Source: Bacillota bacterium
GTDB lineage: Bacteria > Bacillota > JAAYKD01
Assembly: GCA_036744005.1 (NCBI GenBank)
Contig: DAINOJ010000003.1
Coordinates: forward strand, 29,403 to 93,402
DNA: 64,000 bases
Direction: 5' to 3'
How positions within the stretch are numbered: the first letter of the stretch is position 1; each line of letters opens with the position of its first letter. A program made the position numbers and the translations under genes. This document shows positions 35,248 to 48,729 of this stretch, piece by piece. The notes beneath the pieces are model-generated. The model saw only the letters and a list, made by a program, of their open reading frames with translations. It had not been told where the DNA came from and did not search any database.

Positions 35248-36096
35248 ATGATTCGAGTTCAACACGTGTACCATGATTACGAAGGTAAAGGGCATTATGC
35301 CGTGGCTGATATTTCTTTTGTTGCTGAAAGTGGCAAGATTTTTGGCTTCTTAGGTCCAAGTGGGGCTGGGAAATCCACAGTGCAAAATATTATGACCGGG
35401 CTACTCCCTTTGCAAAAAGGGGAGGTCTTTTACGATGAGTTATCGGTTCGCCATGTGAAGACCGCTTTTTTTAACCGTGTAGGCGTCTCGTTTGAGCAGC
35501 CCAATGTGTATACCGCCCTCACCGGATATGAAAATCTGGCGTATTTTGCGGCACAATTCTCGGTGCCAACGCTAGATCCCATGAAGCTACTCGACCGAGT
35601 GGGCTTACGTGACTCGGTGCATAAGAAAGCTTCCGAGTATTCAAAGGGCATGAAACAGCGCTTGACCTTAGCCAGGGCATTGATCAACCAAGGAGATTAC
35701 TTGTTCTTAGATGAACCGACTAGTGGGCTCGACCCGGCGACATCGGTTTTAGTCAGAGAGTTGATTCGTGAGCAAGCCAAACGAGGTGCAACGATTTTTC
35801 TAACGACCCATAATATGGAGTTGGCCGATAGTTTGTGTGATACCGTTGCGTTCTTGTCGGACGGGAAAATTCAAGCGATGGATACCCCCAATGCTCTCAA
35901 ACGGACCTATGGCACCAGTCAAGTGAGGGTTACTGTATTAAAGGATGGCAGAGAAGAAGATTCTTTTTTTGACTTGCGTCAGCCACAAGCATTTCATGAG
36001 TTCCTAAAGGAGAACAATGTATTGAAAGTACATTCCATGGAAGCAACCTTAGAAGAAATCTTCCTGAGAGTGACCGGAAAGGAGCTGAAATCATGA
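35248..36096 (+). CDS. ABC transporter ATP-binding protein
   Basis: Walker A GPSGAGKST, ABC signature YSKGMKQR, Walker B LFLDEPTSGLD. RBS AGGAGG. Confidence 0.85.
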   Translation: MIRVQHVYHDYEGKGHYAVADISFVAESGKIFGFLGPSGAGKSTVQNIMTGLLPLQKGEVFYDELSVRHVKTAFFNRVGVSFEQPNVYTALTGYENLAYFAAQFSVPTLDPMKLLDRVGLRDSVHKKASEYSKGMKQRLTLARALINQGDYLFLDEPTSGLDPATSVLVRELIREQAKRGATIFLTTHNMELADSLCDTVAFLSDGKIQAMDTPNALKRTYGTSQVRVTVLKDGREEDSFFDLRQPQAFHEFLKENNVLKVHSMEATLEEIFLRVTGKELKS

Positions 36097-37061
36097 AAGC
36101 TATAGGGGCTTTGGTCCTACAAGACTTGAAACGCTTATTGAAAAATGCGTTGTTTTGGGTGGTTTCGGTGACCCTCGTTCTGATTGTGCTCTTGGTGCAA
36201 TTCGTTTTCCCTAAAAGCGTGAGCACGGATGCGCCCTTGCTGGTTTCTTTCCAAGCACCCTCCTACAGTACCATGACCCGAGTAGTGGACTCCGAAGCTG
36301 CTTTACGAAAAGTCGTAGCAGAGGAGCAAGCGATTGGTTTTTTAGGAGATGCCGAGGGGAATCTCGCCATTTTGCATCATGGTTTATCCGAAAAAACCAT
36401 TGCTTCGGTATTATTGACGTTGCAACATCAGCAAGCGCCTGTAAGAAGCGAAGTCCTGCAGCCGCAAGAGCCAATCCCTTTTAACCTACATTGGTTACCG
36501 GTGCTGATTAGTTTTGAAGCTTTGGTGCTGGGTTTTATTTTGAGTGGAACACTCATGTTGTCGGAAAAACAAGAAGGCACAGTTCGCGCCATGCGCATCT
36601 CTCCCTTGAGCGAAGTGCGTTACATCATCGCAAAAATGATCCTGTTTGCATTCATCGGCAGCTCATATGCCGGGTTGATGGCCTTGTTCACGGTGGGACC
36701 TTGGATCAATTGGGTTGCATTTCTTTTGGTGAGCGCTTTGGGGAGTGCGTTGTTTGCCTTAATCGGTTTGGCGGTTACCACCCCTTTTCGCGATATGAAC
36801 TCCTGGTTCTTTTCTACGGCACTGTTGCTTTCGGTGAATATGCTGAGTGCATTGGGGTATAGCAATCCGTCGATACAACCTTGGTGGATGCGTATGCTGC
36901 CATCATACCCATTTCTCATGAGTTATGATGACATTCTGTTTGGAAGCGGGTGGCCACAAGGGGTATGGCTGACCATCGGACTATGGATGTTGGTTGCGAT
37001 TCCTGTGGCTCTCCTGGCGGTTCGGCGAGTCTTTTTTGCAAAAGGTGGTGTTTGGGCTTGA
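36093..37061 (+). CDS. ABC-2-type transporter permease
   Basis: Polytopic membrane protein. ATG overlaps the stop of the ATPase gene (ATGA). Confidence 0.7.
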   Translation: MKAIGALVLQDLKRLLKNALFWVVSVTLVLIVLLVQFVFPKSVSTDAPLLVSFQAPSYSTMTRVVDSEAALRKVVAEEQAIGFLGDAEGNLAILHHGLSEKTIASVLLTLQHQQAPVRSEVLQPQEPIPFNLHWLPVLISFEALVLGFILSGTLMLSEKQEGTVRAMRISPLSEVRYIIAKMILFAFIGSSYAGLMALFTVGPWINWVAFLLVSALGSALFALIGLAVTTPFRDMNSWFFSTALLLSVNMLSALGYSNPSIQPWWMRMLPSYPFLMSYDDILFGSGWPQGVWLTIGLWMLVAIPVALLAVRRVFFAKGGVWA

Positions 37062-38047
37062 AAGGTGTCGTATCACAAGTCAAAAAAGAGATGGTCTTAG
37101 TCTCTCGCAGTGGCTTATCGTTGTACATGACCTTAGCTCCTGCCCTCATGGCTTTGGTGTTCCTTTTGGTGTTTGGCAGTATGCAAAGTAGTAGCCCCCG
37201 ATTGGCGGTCATGCACGATATGCCGACCGAAGTCGTTGCCAAACTGGAACAAGTAGCCGAACTCGAGCGGTTTACCAGCGAAAACTCTTTGCGACGTCGC
37301 ATAGAAGGACCCGATGCTCTGGCTGGGGTGCTTATATACGAAGGAGTGGCAACGGTTTTAACGGAAGGGAACGAGGGGGAGAGTTTTGTAAAGGCGATGC
37401 ATCAGCTGGTATCGAGTGCTTTAGCGGCAGAGATACCGGCATTTACAGAAGAGATTTTACCGGGAAATGGCGGATTGGCCATGCAAATCAGTCGTATCAG
37501 TGTGTTTCTATTGGCGTTATTCGTAGGGGGAGCTACTTTGGGATTATCGGCGGTAGATGAACGAGAAACCGGCGTGATTCGAGCCTTCACAGTAAGTCCC
37601 TTTGGCTTATGGGACTACATGCTTAGTAAATGGTTGCCGGCTTTGCTGATCGGTGCATTGGGTGTGACTGCTGCAGCAGCAGTCATGGGTTTGTGGAAGG
37701 AACTACCTCTTCTGCTGATGTTAAGTATGTGTGGCGCAGGGGTAGGAGCATTCTCGATCTTTATTTTGGCAGGATTTGCTAAAAACCAAATTGCTGCCAT
37801 TGGAGTGATGAAACTACTGATGCCACTCATGCTCATGGTGCCGATTTCGGCTTTCTTTGTGGCAGAGCGTTGGCAGTGGTTGTATTACGCCTTTCCCATG
37901 TATTGGCAAAGCAAAGCCTTGCAGAGTATTTTTACCGGAGAACCGGTGACATGGTTTTTGATGCTCTCGTTCTTGGTTAGCTTACCTTGGGCAGTAGGAG
38001 CTGCCATGATTTTTCGTCGACAAACAATGTGGAAGGGATGGAGGTGA
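37058..38047 (+). CDS. ABC-2-type transporter permease (second subunit)
   Basis: Polytopic. Start placed at TTG 37058 overlapping the upstream stop (TTGA); ATG 37091 is an alternative. The ORF-track start at 36950 would overlap the previous gene by 110 nt. Confidence 0.6.
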   Translation: MKGVVSQVKKEMVLVSRSGLSLYMTLAPALMALVFLLVFGSMQSSSPRLAVMHDMPTEVVAKLEQVAELERFTSENSLRRRIEGPDALAGVLIYEGVATVLTEGNEGESFVKAMHQLVSSALAAEIPAFTEEILPGNGGLAMQISRISVFLLALFVGGATLGLSAVDERETGVIRAFTVSPFGLWDYMLSKWLPALLIGALGVTAAAAVMGLWKELPLLLMLSMCGAGVGAFSIFILAGFAKNQIAAIGVMKLLMPLMLMVPISAFFVAERWQWLYYAFPMYWQSKALQSIFTGEPVTWFLMLSFLVSLPWAVGAAMIFRRQTMWKGWR

Positions 38048-38193
38048 AGACTGTGGAAACGTATTGGTATTGGATTATCGCGGGCGTAGTGCTATTGGCG
38101 GCGTTTAAGGTTTGGTATGTGCCCAAATGGCTCAAACAACAAGCCGATAAACGAGCTGAAAAGCAACGCTTACTGGAGAAGGACGACGAATGA
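38038..38193 (+). CDS. Small single-pass membrane protein (51 aa)
   Basis: MEVKTVETYWYWIIAGVVLLAAFKVWYVPKWLKQQADKRAEKQRLLEKDDE: one TM helix and a charged tail. Start overlaps the permease stop; its stop overlaps the TetR start (ATGA). Confidence 0.45.
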   Translation: MEVKTVETYWYWIIAGVVLLAAFKVWYVPKWLKQQADKRAEKQRLLEKDDE

Positions 38194-38804
38194 GTAAAAT
38201 GAAGTGGAAAGCCGAGCAGACGAGAAACCCGCTTTGGCTACAAGAGGAATTGTGGAATGCATCCTTGGATGTATTCTCGATGCAGGCCTATGGAGAAGCT
38301 TCTTTGAATGAAATCATCCGTAAGGCCGGGATGAACAAAGGAAGCTTTTATTACCGATTCTACGATAAGCTGGATTTGTATCTCTCACTTCTGACCCGCA
38401 TGGCAGACGAGAAGCTGACCATGGTTTCGCAGGGCCAAATGCGAGCGACCGGAAAAGATTTCTTTGAAGATTTTCGGCAAATTGCCATGCTCTCATTGCG
38501 ATTTGCACAACAAGAACCGCGTTATATGGGCTTGTGGCGTAGGTTCATGTCTGAGGATCATGAAATAAAGCGAATGGTGCACGAAGAATTTGGACCCATG
38601 TCGCAAGATGCCATTGGAGCTATGGTAGAAATGGCCAAAGCACAAGGAAAAATTCGACCCAACAGCTCCACCGTTTTGGTCAGCCACATGATTTCGGCAC
38701 TGTTGAACAGCATTGATCAGATGATTGTGCCCAACGGCAGCGAAGAAGAAATGATGGTACAAATTGACGAGCTCATTGAGATGTTGAAACATGGAATTCG
38801 TTAA
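38190..38804 (+). CDS. TetR/AcrR-family transcriptional regulator
   Basis: N-terminal HTH (SLNEIIRKAGMNKGSFYYRFYDKLDLY) and helical C-terminal ligand domain. Confidence 0.75.
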   Translation: MSKMKWKAEQTRNPLWLQEELWNASLDVFSMQAYGEASLNEIIRKAGMNKGSFYYRFYDKLDLYLSLLTRMADEKLTMVSQGQMRATGKDFFEDFRQIAMLSLRFAQQEPRYMGLWRRFMSEDHEIKRMVHEEFGPMSQDAIGAMVEMAKAQGKIRPNSSTVLVSHMISALLNSIDQMIVPNGSEEEMMVQIDELIEMLKHGIR

Positions 38805-38824
38805 ATAGCCGATAGAGAATCGTA

Positions 38825-38863
38825 ACACCCTCAGGTGCAGAGTGTATCTGAGGGTGTTTTTCT
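38825..38863 (+). terminator. Intrinsic terminator
   Basis: ACACCCTCAG-gtgcagagtgtat-CTGAGGGTGT followed by TTTTC. Confidence 0.8.
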
Positions 38864-39122
38864 TGGAATTATATGGTTACAAACAAATGGCCAAAAATTT
38901 ACAATGATTATTTTTAATCAGAGAAGGAGTTTGTAAAAAACAGCACGAATAACAAAGACATTCGATATGTGGCTTAAACATACACTATGCATCAATATGT
39001 TGTGTTTCTATACTCGTTGAACAATTAATACGGTTACAAATTAATTACATGCATACTTTGGGGCTTTGACGTAAAAACAAAGCTCTTTCGTATAGATTTG
39101 GACCAAGAAGGAGGTGAAAAAT

Positions 39123-39905
39123 ATGGGTCTCGCTCCAGGCAATATTTTTGGATTTTGGATGTTCCTCATTTGGACCGGATTAGCGGTTTTTGTCATGAAT
39201 CGTTCCCGTACCGGTCAAATTCATGTGAAATTGCGTCGTATTTCCGGTATGGACGCGGTGGAAGAAGCGGTAGGTCGTGCCACCGAAATGGGTAAACCGG
39301 TGCATTTTACTCCGGGGTTAGGGGATGTTGTGGCCAGCAATGCTGCTGAAACCTTTGCAGGGCTCGAATTACTGCAATATGTCTCTGGATTAGCAGCCAA
39401 ATACGATGCCGGTTTAATCGTAACCATTCGTCAACCCAACGTTTTTCCATTGGCGCAAGAATCGGTAAAACAGAGCTTTTTGACGGCCGGTCACCCGGAC
39501 AAGTACCAAGAAAACACCGTTCGTTTCATCTCGAATAACCAAGACGCGTATACATCGGGTGTGGTAGGTATTCTGCATCGCGAGAAAGCGGCTGCCAACA
39601 TTATGGCTGGTTTGTTCATGGGTGAATCTCTGCTGTTAGCAGAAGCGGGTTCGCAAATTGGAGCCATTCAAGTGGCGATTACTGCTTCTACCACTCAGTT
39701 ACCGTTCTTTGTTGCGGCATGTGACTACACCATTATTGGAGAAGAATTATACGCTGCCGGTGCTTATGTCTCGCAAAACAAAATCAAATTGGGCGGCATT
39801 GCTACTCAAGACTATTTTAAATTAGCGGTCATCGCGGTCATTATCCTTGGAACTATTATGACTTCTATGGGCAGTACTGCTTTGAAAGATTTATTGGTTC
39901 GCTAA
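39123..39905 (+). CDS. Uncharacterised bitopic membrane protein (gene 1 of a four-gene membrane operon)
   Basis: RBS AAGGAGG 8 nt before ATG. N-terminal TM (IFGFWMFLIWTGLAVFVM), ~200-aa soluble region, C-terminal TM (LAVIAVIILGTIMTSM). No recognised motif. Confidence 0.6.
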   Translation: MGLAPGNIFGFWMFLIWTGLAVFVMNRSRTGQIHVKLRRISGMDAVEEAVGRATEMGKPVHFTPGLGDVVASNAAETFAGLELLQYVSGLAAKYDAGLIVTIRQPNVFPLAQESVKQSFLTAGHPDKYQENTVRFISNNQDAYTSGVVGILHREKAAANIMAGLFMGESLLLAEAGSQIGAIQVAITASTTQLPFFVAACDYTIIGEELYAAGAYVSQNKIKLGGIATQDYFKLAVIAVIILGTIMTSMGSTALKDLLVR

Positions 39906-39947
39906 GGATGCAACGTATACTTTAAAAACAATAAGGAGGTGTAAACC

Positions 39948-40583
39948 ATGCGAAAGCAAGTACCTGTGCTGATTACCTTTGTGGTTGGTATTCTCGTCAT
40001 GCTAGCCGGCATTACGACCGGACCATTGCCCGGAGTGTTTAAGAATCATATCAGTCCTTGGATGACCATTGTCTCTGCGTTCGCGGTAGGTTTGGCTTCC
40101 GTCAACTTAACACGCGTGCATGGACGCAAAATTAGTCGCAAAAGCGAAGGTTGGATCAACAGTGTCATCTTATTGGGTAGTATGGCGATTTACGCCATTT
40201 GGAGATCGTATATCGAAATCAATCCGACCGACAAAGTGGCGGTCGATGGTTATGCTTTAATCTATAATCATATTTTATCTCCCTTATCTTCCGGTATTTG
40301 GGCTTGTTTGGCGTTTTACGTGGCTTCGTCTTCGTATCGGGCATTCCGTGCGCGCAACCTGGAAGCGACCATTTTGCTGGTGTCCGCTGTCGTGGTCATG
40401 TTGGGGGCAGCACCCATCGGAGCTCAAATCTGGGACAAATTCCCGACCATCCAAAACTGGCTACTCAGTGTTCCCAATATGACCGGTCAACGAGGCATTG
40501 TGATTGGCGCGGCTTTGGGTAGCTTTGTCACCGCCTTACGTGTCTTGTTAGGGTTGGAACGGGGCCATCTTGGTTCACAATAA
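39948..40583 (+). CDS. Uncharacterised polytopic membrane protein (gene 2 of the operon)
   Basis: RBS AAGGAGG. About 5-6 predicted TM helices. Confidence 0.6.
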   Translation: MRKQVPVLITFVVGILVMLAGITTGPLPGVFKNHISPWMTIVSAFAVGLASVNLTRVHGRKISRKSEGWINSVILLGSMAIYAIWRSYIEINPTDKVAVDGYALIYNHILSPLSSGIWACLAFYVASSSYRAFRARNLEATILLVSAVVVMLGAAPIGAQIWDKFPTIQNWLLSVPNMTGQRGIVIGAALGSFVTALRVLLGLERGHLGSQ

Positions 40584-40616
40584 GCAAAGATCTTGCAGAA
40601 AAGGAGGTGTCCAAGC

Positions 40617-41441
40617 TTGAACATTTTCGAACGTTTACAAAAAATCGATCGACGGATTATCTATGTTCTGTTGCTGATTGTTTGTGCCGTGCCATTGGTT
40701 CGTCCGATAGGCTTACCCGTACTGGTCAACGATCGCACTCGCGCCGTGTATAATATAATTGAAGAACTAGACCCAGCCAAAGACACAGTCTTGTTGTCTT
40801 TTGACTATGGACCAGGAGCTGGATTGGATGCCCACGTCGTGCCGGTTGCTGTTGTGGAGCATTTGGCCATGCGTGGAATTAAGTTTGTATGTGTTTCATT
40901 TAGCGCAGAAGGTCCCATGATGGCAGATCAAATCATCAAAAAACTGGAAGAACGCGGTATGAAATATGGAACAGATTTTGCCAACTTAGGGTACTTAGCC
41001 GGGGATGAGAATGCCATTCGCTTGTTTGCAGTGGACAGTCAAACCATCACTACCGATTCTCGCGGTAACAAGGTAGCAGATTTGCCGATTATGAAAGACA
41101 AGAAAACGGTCAAAGATTTTGCTTTTGTTCATCAATTTACATCGGGAGACCCGGCACTTTGGATTCGACAAGTAGTCGATCCCATGGGTATTAAATTCGC
41201 AGCCGGTGTGGTAACAGTAAGTGTACCTTCGGCTATGCCATATTACAACTCCGGGCAAATGGTTGGATTATTAGGCGGATTACGATCGGCAGCCGAATAT
41301 GAGTTGCTTATTGGCAAACCCGGCAGACCGGTTGCCATGATGGACGCTCAGTCCATGGCTCACTTATTGATTATTGGTTTCATCTTTTTAGGTAATGTCG
41401 GACATTTTCTCAGCAAACGCAACGAAGCGAAAGCATCCTAA
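40617..41441 (+). CDS. Uncharacterised bitopic membrane protein (gene 3 of the operon)
   Basis: TTG start 9 nt after AAGGAGG. Same N-TM / soluble / C-TM topology as gene 1. Confidence 0.55.
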   Translation: MNIFERLQKIDRRIIYVLLLIVCAVPLVRPIGLPVLVNDRTRAVYNIIEELDPAKDTVLLSFDYGPGAGLDAHVVPVAVVEHLAMRGIKFVCVSFSAEGPMMADQIIKKLEERGMKYGTDFANLGYLAGDENAIRLFAVDSQTITTDSRGNKVADLPIMKDKKTVKDFAFVHQFTSGDPALWIRQVVDPMGIKFAAGVVTVSVPSAMPYYNSGQMVGLLGGLRSAAEYELLIGKPGRPVAMMDAQSMAHLLIIGFIFLGNVGHFLSKRNEAKAS

Positions 41442-41458
41442 AGTGAGGAGGTGATTTT

Positions 41459-42079
41459 GTGAATATATCTACCAACATTTGGACGTGGACCACGGCCATC
41501 TGCATTTTGGCCATGTGGACCTTCTTGTTCAAAGAAAACCCCATCTTTCGTGCGGCAGAGCATTTGTTCGTCGGAAGTACAGCGGGACATGCCATCGGGA
41601 TGGCCGTGGGCAATATTCATCGCTACGGTTTTAATCCTTTAGTGCAAAAGCAACAGTTGTTGCTGTTGGTTCCGTTGGTCTTAGGCGTCTTGCTCTATGC
41701 CAGATTTTTCCCCAAATGGGCTTGGCTCAGCCGTTATCCGGTTGCTTTCTTGGTTGGTGTGGGAACAGGGCAGTCGATTTATACCTCACTGCGCACCCAA
41801 GTCATTAACCAAAGCATTGGAGCGATGTATAAATTCCCGGGGAATACCGCACTCGATACCATCAATGCATTCATCAGCGTTTTTGGATTGCTGGCAGTAT
41901 TATGTTACTTCTTATTCACAATCCCCCTCAAAGGTGGATTGCAGCAGTTTGCGAAATCAGGTCGGTGGATTATGATGGTGACTTTTGGCGTGGCTTTTGG
42001 CAACGTGGTCGCCGGTCGTATATCTGTTTTATTGGGTGAACTCACGAAAATTCTAGGTGATTGGTTGGGTATGATGTAA
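41459..42079 (+). CDS. Uncharacterised polytopic membrane protein (gene 4 of the operon)
   Basis: GTG start after GAGGAGGTG. About 6 predicted TM helices. Confidence 0.6.
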   Translation: MNISTNIWTWTTAICILAMWTFLFKENPIFRAAEHLFVGSTAGHAIGMAVGNIHRYGFNPLVQKQQLLLLVPLVLGVLLYARFFPKWAWLSRYPVAFLVGVGTGQSIYTSLRTQVINQSIGAMYKFPGNTALDTINAFISVFGLLAVLCYFLFTIPLKGGLQQFAKSGRWIMMVTFGVAFGNVVAGRISVLLGELTKILGDWLGMM

Positions 42080-42092
42080 ACGATGTCGTAGG

Positions 42093-42131
42093 AACAACCT
42101 CAGGTGCAACACGCATTTGAGGTTGTTTTTT
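42093..42131 (+). terminator. Intrinsic terminator
   Basis: AACAACCTCA-gtgcaacacgcattt-TGAGGTTGTT followed by TTTTTTTG. Confidence 0.8.
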
Positions 42132-42214
42132 TGTGAGCTTCATAGGGAATAAAGTAAAATGTAGCGAATGAATAAAGCAAACGAAGTATCATAGAGAACA
42201 AAGGGGGGAGTGGC

Positions 42215-44399: not shown

Positions 44400-45588
44400 A
44401 TGAAGAAAAAAGGCTTAATGACTCGGTTGACCCACGCCGGTGAGAATACCATGGCGAAGAAGATTGCTACATCGGTCTCGGTGCCCAAGGTGAACCCCAT
44501 TTACATGAGCAGTGTATTTTCCTTTGATGATGTGGAGAGTTTGGATGCCGTCTACGATGGTATCGCCAAAGGGTATGTGTACTCGCGCATGTCGAACCCA
44601 GGGACCGATGCCGTGGAAGAGGTGCTGGCGGAGGCAGAAGATTGTGCCGGAGCTCTTGTATTCTCTTCGGGTATGGCAGCGATTATTACCTCGATTTTGG
44701 CTCATGTGCAGTGTGGTGACCATGTTTTGTCGTCCAATGTGCTGTATGGTGGCGTGTATGATTTTTTTAAAAACGAACTACCGCGGTTTGGTATTGAAAT
44801 CACCTTGGCTGATTTCGAAAAGGAAGATGTCAAAGCGCTGATTCGACCCAACACCAAGGTCATTTACACGGAGACCATTTCCAACCCGCTCATGGTGGTA
44901 GAAGATTTGCCACACCTTGCACAGGTAGCTCATGCGCATGGATGCAAGCTCATCGTCGATAATACCTTTGCCACGCCGGCGGTCGCGCAGATTTTAAAAC
45001 TGGGGGTGGATGTGGCGGTATACAGTGCGACCAAGTATTTGGGTGGGCATAGTGATATTTTGGGAGGGGCTCTTACAGCCAACGCGGAAACCATGGGCCA
45101 TCTGCGTCGCTACTTTACGTTATATGGTTCGATTATTCGATGCCTGGATGCTGACACGAAGTTTGCGCACCTTGGATTTGCGTATGGAGCGCCACTGTCG
45201 AAACGCACAAAAAGTGGCGGAGTTTTTTGAGAAACACCAGAAAATTGAACGGGTGTATTACCCGGGCTTAGCTTCTTCGCCGTATCACGAAAGGGCCAAG
45301 CAGTTCTTCTTGGAGAATCGCTTTGGTGGCATGCTCTCGGCCGACATTGCCGGTGGCGAAAAGGCAGCAAGCGCGTTTATAAAAGCATGCCCCACTATAA
45401 AATTGGTACCCAGTTTGGCAGGGGTCTCGACCACCATCTCCTACCCGGCCAAGACTTCGCATCGGGCTTACTCGCCGGAAATGTTAAAACAGGTGGGCAT
45501 TTCCACAGGGCAATTGCGTTTTTCGGTGGGCTTGGAGACCATTGACGATATTTTGGAGGAGTTTGACCAGGCATTGAAGCAAATATAG
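44400..45588 (+). pseudogene. Cys/Met-metabolism PLP-dependent enzyme (cystathionine gamma-synthase / methionine gamma-lyase family) interrupted by a frameshift near 45118-45139
   Basis: Frame A (44400-45230) carries the N-terminal and PLP-lysine region (SATKYLGGHSD). Frame B (through 45588) carries the conserved C-terminal region (FDAWMLTRSLRTLDLRMERHC...). Homology switches frame between HLRRYF and FDAW. Confidence 0.6.
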
Positions 45589-45592
45589 AGAA

Positions 45593-47110: not shown

Positions 47111-48729
47111 GATTCAACCCTCCGTTTTAGTAAGGTGTCTATTCGGAACCCTTCCCCTGGGCCATAGGTGAACTTCACCGTTCCGCCCAAAGCAGATACA
47201 CGCTCTTCCATTCCTAGCAATCCGTGACCTTTTTGCAGGTTTTCACAACCCTGACCGTTATCCAAGATGATGAGTTGCACCTGACGAGGTAAATAACGTA
47301 GAACCACATCCATCCTTGTTGCCTTGCTATGCTTAATAGCGTTTGTCAACGCCTCTTGTAACAACCTGTATAAAAGACGGGTTTCCTCTGATCTCAACTC
47401 ATAGGGGTCGCCCTGAACCAACAAGTCTACAGCAATGCCACTGTGAGCGGCTCCGTTTCGAATACTATGTAACGCCATTTGTAAGCTAGTTTGATCCTGT
47501 TTGTTTTCTATCTGCAAGGAAGATTGCCAGTCTGTTCTGCCTTGGATTAAAAGCTCTTTCACTTTGCTTAGCGCTTCCGAAAAGGTCGTGTCTTGTAGCA
47601 AGGCCACCTCTGCTGTCGATAAAGCTAAAACGACCGTATGACCTAAAACGTCGTGCAACTCCTGTAAAACCTTTTGTCGAGCTTTCCACGCAATCCATTC
47701 CTGCCTACGCTGAAGCATTCGCTGCCACCCGGCATTCGCCTCTTGTAAAAGTCGGTTCTGCTCTTCCAGCAGTTGCCTCATCCTCCGAATCGTAGTCACC
47801 GGACGCAAGCGCCACAAGGCACCTGCGGGCACGGTGCTTTTTTCTACCTCGAACCAATCGGATCCCACTTGCACAGTGCTACCCGGGATCCACTCGATGA
47901 ATGGGAGACCTAAAAACACCTCCCTTGCTCGTTCATTGCGGTGTAACACCGTTCCTTGTTCATCGCAAACAAAGCAGGCATCACCGTGTCGCTCAAACAA
48001 TTGTTCTTGTGCCAAGGGAAGCACATCGAGGAAACGGGTTCGCAGGGCAGCCATGGCAAATAAAAGCAAACTGGCATTGGTCGCGATGGGAGTGTAATCA
48101 AAACGAGGGGTATGGTGCAATAGCATTTTGAACCAGCCAAACACATAAAAGAGATTGACAACGAGCGGCAAGAGGATCGCTCCGGTAAATAAGATGGCTT
48201 GTGTCCTTCTATGTTGAAACAAACTGCTATAATCACGGCTCAGCCAGTAGAAGGCAACAGCTAAATAAGCATAGGTAACACTCATGACACCATAGAACAG
48301 AGGTCCGAAATCATCGGCATATAGGGTGAATCGACTATAGAACATAAAGTGCCAAGGGTTACTCCACACGAGCAAAAAACTGATCATTCCGGGCAAAAGC
48401 AGCCAGAAGATTCTCCTGCGCGACGGTAAGCGATGAAACCGATAGACCATGGCAAACAACAATACCAAAGGACCTAAGAAAGAAGAAGCAAAATACTGAA
48501 GTACCACAAAAAACCACCGTAGATCCAAGGTAGAAGCAACGGTCTTGCCGATTTTAGCCAACATCCATAAAGCCAAAGAACCTTGAGCCAACAAATAACA
48601 AGACAACAATGCACCCTTTTTCGCTTTGTGAGAAATAAACCAATTGAAACCAAAGGAAACCAACAATGAGAACAAGTGCCAGGCTTCAATGATAAAAACC
48701 TCGTCTGCTAATTTGGCGGATACTTGCAT
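47095..48729 (-). CDS. Sensor histidine kinase, NarL-partner type (polytopic N-terminal domain, PAS-like, HisKA_3, HATPase_c)
   Basis: About 6-7 N-terminal TM helices, H-box LQELHDVLGHTVV, N-box LLQEALTNAIKHS, G-boxes ILDNGQG and GHGLLGMEERV. Confidence 0.85.
   Translation of the reverse strand: MQVSAKLADEVFIIEAWHLFSLLVSFGFNWFISHKAKKGALLSCYLLAQGSLALWMLAKIGKTVASTLDLRWFFVVLQYFASSFLGPLVLLFAMVYRFHRLPSRRRIFWLLLPGMISFLLVWSNPWHFMFYSRFTLYADDFGPLFYGVMSVTYAYLAVAFYWLSRDYSSLFQHRRTQAILFTGAILLPLVVNLFYVFGWFKMLLHHTPRFDYTPIATNASLLLFAMAALRTRFLDVLPLAQEQLFERHGDACFVCDEQGTVLHRNERAREVFLGLPFIEWIPGSTVQVGSDWFEVEKSTVPAGALWRLRPVTTIRRMRQLLEEQNRLLQEANAGWQRMLQRRQEWIAWKARQKVLQELHDVLGHTVVLALSTAEVALLQDTTFSEALSKVKELLIQGRTDWQSSLQIENKQDQTSLQMALHSIRNGAAHSGIAVDLLVQGDPYELRSEETRLLYRLLQEALTNAIKHSKATRMDVVLRYLPRQVQLIILDNGQGCENLQKGHGLLGMEERVSALGGTVKFTYGPGEGFRIDTLLKRRVESCDTP

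What the first reader, a model, noticed from the sequence alone, without database searches (positions are those of the whole stretch)
38865..42131. Four-gene membrane operon of unknown function with a long AT-rich leader
Four tightly spaced genes, each with a strong GGAGG RBS and bounded by terminators, encode two bitopic proteins (N- and C-terminal TM helices flanking a ~200-aa soluble domain) alternating with two polytopic proteins of ~210 aa. None contains an ATPase, transporter signature or other motif I can recognise. The alternating bitopic/polytopic pattern suggests an internally duplicated two-component membrane complex. A ~250-nt AT-rich leader with two GGTTACAAA repeats precedes it.
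Basis: seen in the sequence. Interest (0 to 1): 0.6.

Follow-up and report, generated by a model that had tools for sequence, protein, structure and literature searches.

The report
Conserved four-subunit membrane complex, function unknown
The four genes are real and form an operon conserved, in the same order, in hundreds of mostly uncultured anaerobic bacteria (and MAGs labelled archaeal); it encodes an uncharacterised membrane complex whose two halves appear to sit in the membrane in opposite orientations.

Summary
There are four tightly spaced genes, each with a GGAGG ribosome-binding site: g1 39123-39905, g2 39948-40583, g3 40617-41441 and g4 41459-42079. Strong hairpin terminators bound them.

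Only g1 matches a catalogued family (Pfam DUF6754, function unknown). g2, g3 and g4 match nothing in Pfam, NCBIfam, PADLOC or PDB sequences.

All four genes recur together in 75 of 80 fetched genomes, nearly always in this order. These span Bacillota, Ignavibacteria, Zixibacteria, Cloacimonadota, WOR-3, Elusimicrobia, Sumerlaeota and Bathyarchaeia-labelled MAGs, and some genomes carry two or three tandem copies. This is one conserved hetero-oligomeric module.

AlphaFold models show that g1 and g3 share one plan: a TM helix, a six-stranded Rossmann-like domain, then a TM helix. Charge statistics, insertion positions and ectodomain fusions place:
- the g1 domain inside the cell and the g3 domain outside;
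- g2 as six TM helices with the N-terminus inside, and g4 with the N-terminus outside.

So (g1+g2) is the topological mirror of (g3+g4). Sequence evidence for duplication is weak for g1/g3 and absent for g2/g4.

My best guess is a translocation or ion-coupling device. In about a fifth of relatives it lies next to a GlmL-like ATPase. The AT-rich "leader" is an ordinary, unconserved promoter region. No literature exists.

The parts
38824..38858 (+). Intrinsic terminator of the upstream TetR-family gene (38190-38804). It forms the 5' boundary of the unit.
   Evidence: Terminator scan. RNA fold -27 kcal/mol, z = -5.9.
38859..39122 (+).
   Evidence: GC 0.31-0.34 against about 0.46 in the flanks. 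A sigma-70-like site lies at 38876-38905. No Rfam family matches. RNA fold z = +0.45. Not conserved in relatives.
38871..38888 (+). Copy 1 of an 18-nt direct repeat (ATATGGTTACAAACAAAT). It overlaps the -35-like hexamer GTTACA.
39028..39045 (+). Copy 2 of the direct repeat (ATACGGTTACAAATTAAT), 83% identical to copy 1 and 157 nt downstream of it.
39123..39905 (+). g1 is a bitopic protein (260 aa) of Pfam family DUF6754. It consists of TM helix 8-30, a cytoplasmic six-stranded Rossmann-like domain, and TM helix 220-248. The N-terminus is predicted outside.
   Evidence: Pfam E = 9e-85. AF2 model pLDDT 81.8. 45 invariant residues among 24 homologues, including GRATEMG and CDYTxIGEE. K+R bias in 77 of 78 homologues. 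Signal-peptide plus Fn3-like ectodomains are fused N-terminally in FCB-group homologues.
39948..40583 (+). g2 is a polytopic protein (211 aa) with six TM helices and both termini predicted inside. It carries a conserved cytoplasmic loop, SAAYRAFRAR. It belongs to no catalogued family.
   Evidence: K+R bias in 77 of 77 homologues. Insertions occur only in predicted outside loops. The family comprises 2128 clusters at 50% identity.
40617..41441 (+). g3 is a bitopic protein (274 aa). It consists of TM helix 12-28, an extracytoplasmic six-stranded Rossmann-like domain, and TM helix 237-273. Both termini are predicted cytoplasmic. It belongs to no catalogued family.
41459..42079 (+). g4 is a polytopic protein (206 aa) with about six TM helices and the N-terminus predicted outside. 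It has a Gly-rich TM4 and the conserved motifs YFFFSxEHKG and FGAxFGxTVMxR. It belongs to no catalogued family.
   Evidence: K+R bias in 67 of 72 homologues. Insertions lie only in predicted outside loops.
42090..42132 (+). Intrinsic terminator ending the operon. It shares the core CCTCAGGTGCA with the upstream terminator.
   Evidence: RNA fold -25.1 kcal/mol, z = -6.3. Shared 11-mer.

Best explanation
The four genes encode the subunits of one conserved hetero-oligomeric complex in the cytoplasmic membrane. It is built from two topologically mirrored modules.
- Module A is g1 plus g2. g1 has two TM helices holding a highly conserved Rossmann-like domain on the cytoplasmic face. g2 has six TM helices with the N-terminus inside.
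- Module B is g3 plus g4. g3 has the same plan, but its Rossmann-like domain is on the outer face. g4 has six TM helices with the N-terminus outside.

I think it most likely works as a translocation device, either a transporter or an ion-coupled carrier. In this reading:
- the 12 helices of g2 and g4 form an antiparallel core;
- the conserved polar residues of the C-terminal helices of g1 (Q229, D230, K233) and g3 (D243, Q245, H249, N260) line or gate the path;
- the outer g3 domain binds or gates on the outside;
- the inner g1 domain binds a cytoplasmic ligand, or a partner that regulates or energises the cycle.

In about a fifth of relatives that partner is probably the adjacent GlmL-like ASKHA ATPase with its barrel-sandwich protein. 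The window itself lacks these genes.

What is shown and what is inferred:
- Shown: gene anatomy, conservation of the four-gene set, the folds of g1 and g3, and the absence of any known-family match.
- Inferred from statistics: the topologies.
- Inferred without direct evidence: physical assembly, the transport function and the energy source.
For: **One module.**
- All four genes are present in 75 of 80 loci from other species. Three exceptions are cut off by contig ends.
- Gene order is the same across more than 10 phylum-level groups.
- Median intergenic gaps are 6-15 nt.
- Two or three tandem copies of the whole set occur in L014, L024, L041, L046, L053 and L072.
- Neighbouring genes are otherwise variable.

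**Folds.** g1 and g3 both follow the plan TM helix, (beta-alpha)x6, TM helix. Their nearest solved folds overlap: MTH0777, RCK/KTN, Sir2 and transhydrogenase dIII.

**Mirrored topology.**
- K+R counts over 72-78 homologues per family:
  - g1: 1.5 at the termini against 5.2 next to the domain (77/78 homologues).
  - g3: 6.1 against 3.3 (67/74).
  - g2: odd loops 10.2 against even loops 3.9 (77/77).
  - g4: odd loops 4.1 against even loops 7.6 (67/72).
- Lineage-specific insertions fall only in the loops predicted to be outside.
- A WD40 propeller and other domains are inserted in the g2 TM3-4 loop. One g2 homologue carries a lipoprotein signal, a domain and an extra TM helix ahead of g2.
- Signal-peptide plus Fn3-like ectodomains precede TM1 of g1 in FCB-group lineages.

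**Transport-like features.**
- Conserved polar or charged residues lie in or at the TM helices, and some helices are Gly-rich.
- Tandem paralogue expansion is present.
- Amidohydrolase and peptidase neighbours occur in several Bacillota loci.
- RCK/KTN domains of K+ transporters are among the best structural neighbours.

**Partner ATPase.** A MutL/GlmL-like protein (PF13941, E = 4e-124), a protein with an RnfC_N-type barrel-sandwich domain, and a small protein lie adjacent in about 16 of 80 loci from several phyla.
Against: - There is no similarity to any transporter, channel or pump family by sequence or profile.
- The conservation of g1 is more typical of an enzyme active site than of a regulatory domain. 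It is 43-50% identical between phyla and has invariant H61, C200, D201, E207 and E208 at the C-terminal edge of the sheet.
- Accretion of Fn3, WD40 and other ectodomains is more usual for envelope or surface machinery than for small-molecule carriers.
- No energy source is encoded in the window's operon, and no GlmL-like gene lies within the 64 kb window.
- Physical association of the four proteins was not tested.
- The topology is a prediction from charge bias and fusions, not a measurement.
Confidence: 0.4

Rival explanations
1. It is a membrane-anchored enzyme or energy-converting complex. The g1 cytoplasmic domain is the catalytic subunit and binds a nucleotide, cofactor or metal. Chemistry there is coupled to ion movement through g2/g4, in the manner of transhydrogenase or Rnf/Nqr.
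For: - g1 is extremely conserved. It has 45 invariant positions clustered after the beta-strands, including H, C, D and E residues.
- Transhydrogenase dIII and Sir2-type domains are among the structural neighbours of both g1 and g3.
- The composition resembles RnfA/E plus RnfG plus RnfC: two 6-TM proteins of about 210 aa with opposite orientation, a bitopic outer-face subunit, and in relatives an adjacent protein with an RnfC_N barrel-sandwich domain.
Against: - There is no Rnf-Nqr Pfam hit, and g2/g4 profiles show no similarity to E. coli RsxA or RsxE.
- g2 and g4 have no conserved cysteines and no Fe-S, flavin or GxGxxG motifs.
- No redox partner genes recur next to the operon.
Confidence: 0.25
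2. It is an envelope or cell-surface scaffold or signalling platform. The complex anchors or senses extracellular or periplasmic macromolecules through the g3 domain and lineage-specific ectodomains. It then relays this to the cytoplasmic g1 domain and to GlmL-like actin-fold ATPases, broadly like PilMNO or MreBCD-type assemblies.
For: - Fn3-like domains are fused to g1 in many diderm lineages.
- WD40 propeller, PEGA-like or CBM-like and helical domains are inserted in an outer loop of g2.
- The operon recurs next to an ASKHA (actin-fold) ATPase.
- In the FCB group it sits among housekeeping genes such as obg, dprA, ptsI, metK and ahcY.
Against: - The Bacillota form, as in this window, has none of these ectodomains.
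- The system occurs in monoderms, diderms and archaea-labelled MAGs, which do not share an envelope.
- Twelve polytopic helices with conserved polar residues are more than an anchor needs.
- No output domain such as a kinase or cyclase is present.
Confidence: 0.15
3. It is a parallel, internally duplicated two-component complex. g1/g3 and g2/g4 are paralogue pairs in the same orientation.
For: - The bitopic/polytopic pattern alternates and the sizes are similar.
- g1 and g3 share the same fold plan.
- The g1/g3 profile score is above the reversed nulls.
- The two share a motif in the C-terminal TM helix.
Against: - Charge bias, insertion sites and ectodomain fusions put the two pairs in opposite orientations.
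- The g2/g4 profile score equals the null.
- BLASTP finds nothing for either pair.
Confidence: 0.1
4. The four ORFs are unrelated neighbours, or two independent two-gene systems, and do not form one unit.
For: Two loci (L037, L076) have a g1 homologue without detectable g2-g4.
Against: - 75 of 80 loci have all four genes, nearly always in the same order with near-zero spacing. The whole set is duplicated as a block.
- In the window, terminators lie only at the two ends.
Confidence: 0.03

Closest known systems
Pfam DUF6754 (PF20539), a domain of unknown function
   Same: g1 is a full-length member: E = 9e-85, 284 bits against a cut-off of 27, covering profile positions 16-255 of 257. Sources name its homologues 'DUF6754 domain-containing protein' or 'hypothetical protein'.
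   Different: The Pfam entry covers only g1 and carries no function. Three things are not part of any catalogued description I could find, and no paper in the searched library mentions it. These are the obligate partners g2, g3 and g4, which have no family, the four-gene architecture, and the topology.
RnfA/RnfE and NqrD/NqrE pairs, with RnfG/NqrC and RnfC/NqrA (ion-translocating ferredoxin/NADH oxidoreductases)
   Same: - Both have two polytopic subunits of about 200-210 aa with six TM helices and opposite membrane orientation.
- Both have a bitopic subunit with its domain on the outer face.
- In about a fifth of relatives an adjacent soluble protein carries an RnfC_N-type barrel-sandwich domain.

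The properties of Rnf/Nqr are taken from established knowledge of those complexes.
   Different: - There is no sequence or profile similarity to Rnf-Nqr.
- There are no conserved cysteines and no flavin or Fe-S motifs.
- There are no RnfB or RnfD equivalents.
- The outer domain is Rossmann-like, not an FMN-binding fold.
RCK/KTN domains of K+ channels and transporters (MthK, KtrA/TrkA, KefC)
   Different: - The matches are weak and generic, and no TrkA_N Pfam hit or GxGxxG motif is present.
- RCK domains are cytoplasmic and are not clamped between two TM helices.
- The g3 domain is predicted to lie outside the cell.
Proton-translocating transhydrogenase (PntAB), domain dIII
   Different: There is no sequence similarity and no NAD(P)-binding signature. 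The subunit plan is different, and one of the domains here is extracytoplasmic.
Antiparallel (inverted-topology) membrane protein pairs such as EmrE-type SMR pairs and Fluc
   Same: Partner subunits are predicted to have opposite orientation, with opposite K+R bias.
   Different: In those pairs the homology is obvious. Here g2/g4 homology is not detectable. Each module also carries a large soluble domain, which those pairs lack.

Membership tests
Pfam DUF6754 (g1) | Score above the curated Pfam gathering threshold over the whole domain | tested here: met
   284.3 bits against a cut-off of 27; E = 9.1e-85; profile positions 16-255 of 257.
Conserved g1-g2-g3-g4 module (defined here) | All four genes adjacent and co-oriented, in the order bitopic, polytopic, bitopic, polytopic | tested here: met
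   The window has this arrangement. It is the same in 75 of 80 other loci, and three of the five exceptions are cut by contig ends.
Rnf/Nqr complexes | RnfA/E-NqrD/E family membership (Pfam Rnf-Nqr) for the two 6-TM subunits | tested here: not met
   No hit at E <= 0.5 for any of 37 g2 or 34 g4 homologues. hhalign against E. coli RsxA and RsxE gives P 0.22-0.66.
Rnf/Nqr complexes | Conserved TM cysteines (Fe-S site) and flavin or Fe-S subunits in the operon | tested here: not met
   The g2 and g4 family consensus has no conserved Cys. The operon has no Fe-S or FMN domains.
RCK/KTN (TrkA_N) domain | TrkA_N profile match and a GxGxxG nucleotide-binding loop | tested here: not met
   No Pfam or NCBIfam hit. 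The loop after beta-1 reads HFTPGLGD in g1 and DYGPGAG in g3. Only fold-level resemblance is seen.
ABC/ECF transporters | A Walker-motif ATPase subunit, and a recognised permease, S or T component in the operon | tested here: not met
   No ABC_tran, CbiQ, CbiM or similar hit in g1-g4. The ABC-2 system upstream is a separate unit ended by its own terminator.
Periplasmic substrate-binding proteins (g3 domain) | Match to an SBP family profile, or a two-lobed SBP fold | tested here: not met
   NMT1_2 scores only E = 0.017, 15.4 bits against a cut-off of 24.7. The model is a single Rossmann-like lobe, and SBP hits are no better than other Rossmann folds.
Anti-phage defence systems (PADLOC) | Match to any PADLOC model | tested here: not met
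   No hit at E <= 0.1 for any of the four proteins. There are also no homologues on plasmids or phages.
Riboswitch or cis-regulatory leader RNA | An Rfam covariance-model match, or conserved stable structure upstream of g1 | tested here: not met
   Best Rfam E = 0.57, far below the gathering score. Fold z = +0.45. No riboswitch lies upstream of g1 in 9 related loci. The repeat is not conserved.
Extended GlmL-associated cluster (fam6, GlmL-like, barrel-sandwich, g1-g4) | An adjacent PF13941 MutL/GlmL-like gene and an RnfC_N-domain gene | tested here: not met
   Present in about 16 of 80 relatives. tblastn finds none in the 64 kb window. The rest of the genome could not be searched.
Inverted-duplication (antiparallel paralogue) architecture | Detectable homology between the two modules | tested here: inconclusive
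   - g1/g3: hhalign score 27.5 (P = 0.004) against a reversed-null maximum of 22.5.
- g2/g4: 21.7 against a null of 21.4-22.5.
- A1/A2 profiles align only the C-terminal TM helix.
- The models could not be superposed with the tools available.
Inverted-duplication (antiparallel paralogue) architecture | Opposite membrane orientation of the two modules | tested here: met
   Shown by prediction only. The K+R bias is consistent in 67-77 of 72-78 homologues per family. It is supported by insertion sites and by ectodomain and signal-peptide fusions.

The most novel reading that the evidence does not exclude
The operon encodes a previously undescribed, ancient superfamily of membrane machines shared by many bacterial phyla and some archaea. 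It would be built by inverted duplication of a 'two-TM-clamped Rossmann domain plus 6-TM' module. Homologous soluble domains would then work on opposite faces of the membrane around an antiparallel 12-TM core. This would be a new architecture for transport or energy coupling, in some lineages driven by a GlmL-like actin-fold ATPase.
Probability: 0.3. Interest if true: 0.85.

Novelty: categorically new. Interest (0 to 1): 0.62.

Why it matters
**Scale of the family.**
- g1 has at least 6900 clusters at 90% identity.
- g2 has 2128 clusters at 50% identity.

These genomes are concentrated in poorly understood anaerobic lineages: deep Bacillota, the FCB group, WOR-3, Elusimicrobia and Bathyarchaeia-labelled MAGs.

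**State of knowledge.**
- Three of the four subunits have no family at all.
- Nothing has been published on the one DUF that exists.

**What a worked-out function would give.**
- It would annotate thousands of genes at once.
- If the mirrored-module architecture is real, it would be a rare case of inverted-topology evolution that carries large soluble domains to both sides of the membrane. That would interest membrane-protein evolution and transporter mechanism.
- The link to GlmL-like proteins could also give that family a role outside B12-mutase reactivation.

Tried and rejected
**Family and database searches.**
- Pfam, NCBIfam and PADLOC scans of all four proteins gave only DUF6754 for g1.
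- Per-member Pfam scans of 37 g2 and 34 g4 homologues at E <= 0.5 gave only scattered chance hits.
- PDB sequence and profile searches for all four families found nothing significant.
- There are no homologues on plasmids or phages.

**Structure searches.**
- The afdb50 library was unavailable. Whether the g3 model retrieves DUF6754 models could therefore not be tested.

**Duplication tests.**
- BLASTP of g1/g3 and g2/g4 found nothing.
- hhalign gave weak g1/g3 support only.
- Half-protein comparisons suggest a possible internal repeat in g4 (TM2-3 against TM4-5, P = 6e-4). This is marginal after multiple testing.

**Rnf/Nqr hypothesis.** Rejected at the sequence level.

**Regulatory RNA in the leader.** Rejected.

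**Gene neighbourhood.**
- A census of 104 flanking proteins found only the MutL/GlmL-like and RnfC_N-domain genes recurring. Everything else occurred two or three times at most.
- Amidohydrolase, M20 peptidase, aminopeptidase and asparaginase neighbours in some Bacillota are suggestive, but too few to count.
- The barrel-sandwich partner family matched only KOW domains in the PDB.
- Genes flanking the Bathyarchaeia-labelled loci are not diagnostic of domain, so the archaeal occurrence rests on MAG labels.

**Literature.** Searches for DUF6754, PF20539, PF13941 and GlmL plus membrane cluster returned nothing relevant.

Full report
**1. Observation**

The region holds four co-oriented ORFs.
- g1: 39123-39905, 260 aa, ATG start.
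- g2: 39948-40583, 211 aa, ATG start.
- g3: 40617-41441, 274 aa, TTG start.
- g4: 41459-42079, 206 aa, GTG start.

Each is preceded by GGAGG 7-9 nt upstream, and the gaps between genes are 42, 33 and 17 nt. Public gene calls on identical metagenomic contigs use the same four coordinates.

A strong hairpin with a T-run ends the upstream TetR gene at 38824-38858. Another ends the operon at about 42090-42132. Both fold far better than shuffled sequence, with z = -5.9 and -6.3.

The 264 nt between the first terminator and g1 have GC of 0.31-0.34, against about 0.46 around them. They hold the only two copies of GGTTACAAA in the window. These are the core of an 18-nt direct repeat at 38871 and 39028.

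**2. The 'leader' is not special**

- No Rfam family approaches its threshold.
- The putative 5' UTR folds no better than shuffles, z = +0.45.
- The repeat is absent upstream of g1 in the closest relatives.
- No riboswitch lies upstream of g1 in nine related Bacillota loci.
- The first repeat copy overlaps a sigma-70-like -35 hexamer.

I read this stretch as an ordinary AT-rich promoter or operator region. It may be bound by the adjacent TetR regulator, but that is inference.

**3. What the proteins are**

g1 is a full-length member of Pfam DUF6754 (E = 9e-85). g2, g3 and g4 match nothing:
- not Pfam or NCBIfam;
- not PADLOC;
- not PDB sequences, whether searched as single proteins or as family profiles;
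- not Pfam when 37 g2 and 34 g4 homologues are scanned one by one.

Every database name for the homologues is 'hypothetical' or 'DUF6754 domain-containing'. The literature library holds no paper mentioning DUF6754, PF20539 or PF13941.

**4. It is one conserved module**

In the 80 loci kept, tblastn finds all four proteins in 75.
- Three exceptions are truncated by contig ends (L009, L012, L056).
- Two have only g1 (L037, L076).

Gene order is g1-g2-g3-g4 almost everywhere, and median intergenic gaps are 6-15 nt.

The carriers span many groups:
- uncultured Bacillota, including Symbiobacteriaceae and Fermentithermobacillaceae;
- Ignavibacteria, Zixibacteria, Cloacimonadota and Marinimicrobia;
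- Fermentibacteria, WOR-3, Stahlbacteria, Eisenbacteria and Coatesbacteria;
- Sumerlaeota and Elusimicrobia;
- three MAGs labelled Bathyarchaeia. The genes flanking those three loci are not diagnostic of domain, so the archaeal occurrence rests on the MAG labels.

Several genomes carry two copies, and L041 and L053 carry three tandem copies of the whole set.

The families are large:
- at least 6900 clusters at 90% identity for g1;
- 2128 clusters at 50% identity for g2.

None is on a plasmid or phage record. The window itself is an uncultured Bacillota contig.

**5. Folds**

AlphaFold2 models are confident for g3 (pLDDT 90.5) and good for g1 (81.8). Both follow the same plan:
- an N-terminal TM helix;
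- a three-layer alpha/beta domain with six strands alternating with helices;
- a long C-terminal TM helix.

g1 is unusually conserved. It is 43-50% identical between phyla. Among 24 homologues it has 45 invariant residues, including GRATEMG, H61, PG after strand 1, and C200-D201-Y202...G206-E207-E208. Most of these lie at the C-terminal edge of the sheet, where Rossmann-like domains bind ligands.

**6. Topology**

*Charge bias over 72-78 homologues per family.*

| Protein | Regions compared (mean K+R) | Homologues agreeing | Reading |
|---|---|---|---|
| g1 | termini 1.5; domain-proximal flanks 5.2 | 77/78 | domain inside |
| g3 | termini 6.1; domain-proximal flanks 3.3 | 67/74 | domain outside |
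| g2 | odd loops 10.2; even loops 3.9 | 77/77 | N-terminus inside |
| g4 | odd loops 4.1; even loops 7.6 | 67/72 | N-terminus outside |

*Independent support.*
- Lineage-specific insertions occur only in the loops predicted to be outside, in both g2 and g4.
- Some g2 homologues carry a WD40 propeller or other domains in the TM3-4 loop. One has a lipoprotein signal, a domain and an extra TM helix ahead of g2.
- In many FCB-group lineages g1 is preceded by a signal peptide and an Fn3-like ectodomain with the motif D-x-PND-x-G. In Cloacimonadota the ectodomain is about 700 aa.

So (g1+g2) is the topological mirror image of (g3+g4). This is a prediction, not a measurement.

**7. Were the modules duplicated?**

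- BLASTP finds nothing for either pair.
- On alignments built from the 80 loci, hhalign scores g1/g3 at 27.5 (P = 0.004). The alignment is collinear over strand 1, helix A, strand 2, helix B and strand 3.
- Twelve forward-against-reversed null comparisons reach at most 22.5.
- A greedy alignment is collinear over nearly the full length. It lines up AACDY in g1 with AAEY in g3. It also reveals a shared C-terminal TM motif, Q-[DS]-x2-[KH]-L-x9-G-[TN].
- A second, narrower profile pair finds that last motif on its own.
- g2/g4 score 21.7, the same as the nulls.

Duplication of the bitopic subunit is therefore plausible. Duplication of the polytopic subunit is not shown.

**8. Neighbours**

Flanking genes vary widely. 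The one association that crosses phyla, seen in about 16 of 80 loci, is a trio of genes:
- a roughly 600-aa MutL/GlmL-like ASKHA protein. It matches PF13941 at E = 4e-124 but falls far below the NCBIfam GlmL cut-offs;
- a roughly 375-aa protein with an RnfC_N-type barrel-sandwich domain and a KOW-like C-terminus;
- a roughly 127-aa protein.

These lie immediately before or after the four genes. The window has none of them. Some Bacillota loci have amidohydrolase, M20 peptidase, aminopeptidase or asparaginase neighbours, but too few to weigh.

**9. Interpretation**

*Established.* This is a self-contained, strongly conserved four-subunit membrane module with no known relatives.

*Most likely (about 0.4).* It is a translocation device. 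g2 and g4 would form an antiparallel 12-helix core. The TM hairpins of g1 and g3 would contribute conserved polar residues. One Rossmann-like domain on each face would bind, gate or couple. In some lineages a GlmL-like ATPase would act as a cytoplasmic partner.

*Rivals.*
- An enzyme or energy-converting complex centred on the g1 domain (about 0.25). The resemblance to Rnf/Nqr is in composition only, and sequence tests failed.
- An envelope or surface scaffold (about 0.15). The ectodomain accretions suggest this.

*Close to excluded.* The four genes being unrelated neighbours.

**10. Novelty**

Beyond the DUF label on one subunit, nothing known matches in sequence, profile or specific fold. 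The predicted mirrored architecture, with soluble domains on both faces, has no described counterpart that I could find. I rate it as lying outside known kinds, with two caveats: the function is unknown, and deeper profile or structure searches, which I could not run, might still connect it to a known superfamily.

Noticed in passing
window 38829-38839 and 42098-42108: The two terminators that flank the operon share the 11-mer CCTCAGGTGCA and similar stems. The exact 11-mer occurs nowhere else in the window; one copy with a single mismatch lies at 47276. The cause is unknown. They could be a repeated terminator element or a remnant of a cassette boundary.
   Followed up: partly
window about 44400-45590 (L001 14453-15641): The Cys/Met-metabolism PLP enzyme gene is split into 276-aa and 134-aa overlapping calls in this contig. 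A near-identical contig (L002) has it intact at 398 aa. This is probably a frameshift, from either a pseudogene or an assembly error.
   Followed up: no
window about 35250-38800 (L001 5301-8857): An ABC ATPase, two ABC-2 permeases and a TetR regulator lie immediately upstream and have their own terminator. The TetR gene is the nearest candidate regulator for the GGTTACAAA repeats.
   Followed up: no
window up to about 32190 and from about 49116 (L001 1-2243 and 19169 to the end): Two giant predicted surface proteins flank the region. One is 4557 aa with Flg_new, DUF5018 and fn3 repeats. The other is 2536 aa with TIG domains. Two Rce1-like CPBP protease genes and a GGDEF gene lie after the first one.
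   Followed up: no
L041 and L053 (whole loci); L014, L024, L046, L072: L041 (Ignavibacteria) and L053 (Zixibacteria) carry three tandem copies of the complete four-gene set. The other four loci carry two copies, either tandem or divergent.
   Followed up: partly
L047, L071, L073, L081 (g1 homologues of 910-993 aa); L079 (704 aa): The Cloacimonadota g1 homologues (L047, L071, L073, L081) carry a roughly 700-aa N-terminal ectodomain with a signal peptide. L079, labelled only 'uncultured bacterium', has an extended 704-aa g1 with a similar repetitive N-terminal region. Shorter FCB-group versions carry one Fn3-like domain with a conserved D-x-PND-x-G...W motif and QWF just before the TM helix.
   Followed up: partly
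L020, L026, L029, L031, L040 and others: A GlmL-like ASKHA protein often occurs in two paralogues, together with an RnfC_N-domain protein and a small protein of about 127 aa with a hydrophobic segment. In Bacillota a roughly 170-aa two-TM protein also lies directly upstream of g1. None of these has a known function.
   Followed up: partly
g4 (window 41459-42079), residues 36-87 against 97-157: There may be an internal repeat, with TM2-TM3 resembling TM4-TM5 (hhalign P = 6e-4 on half-alignments). It is marginal after multiple tests.
   Followed up: partly
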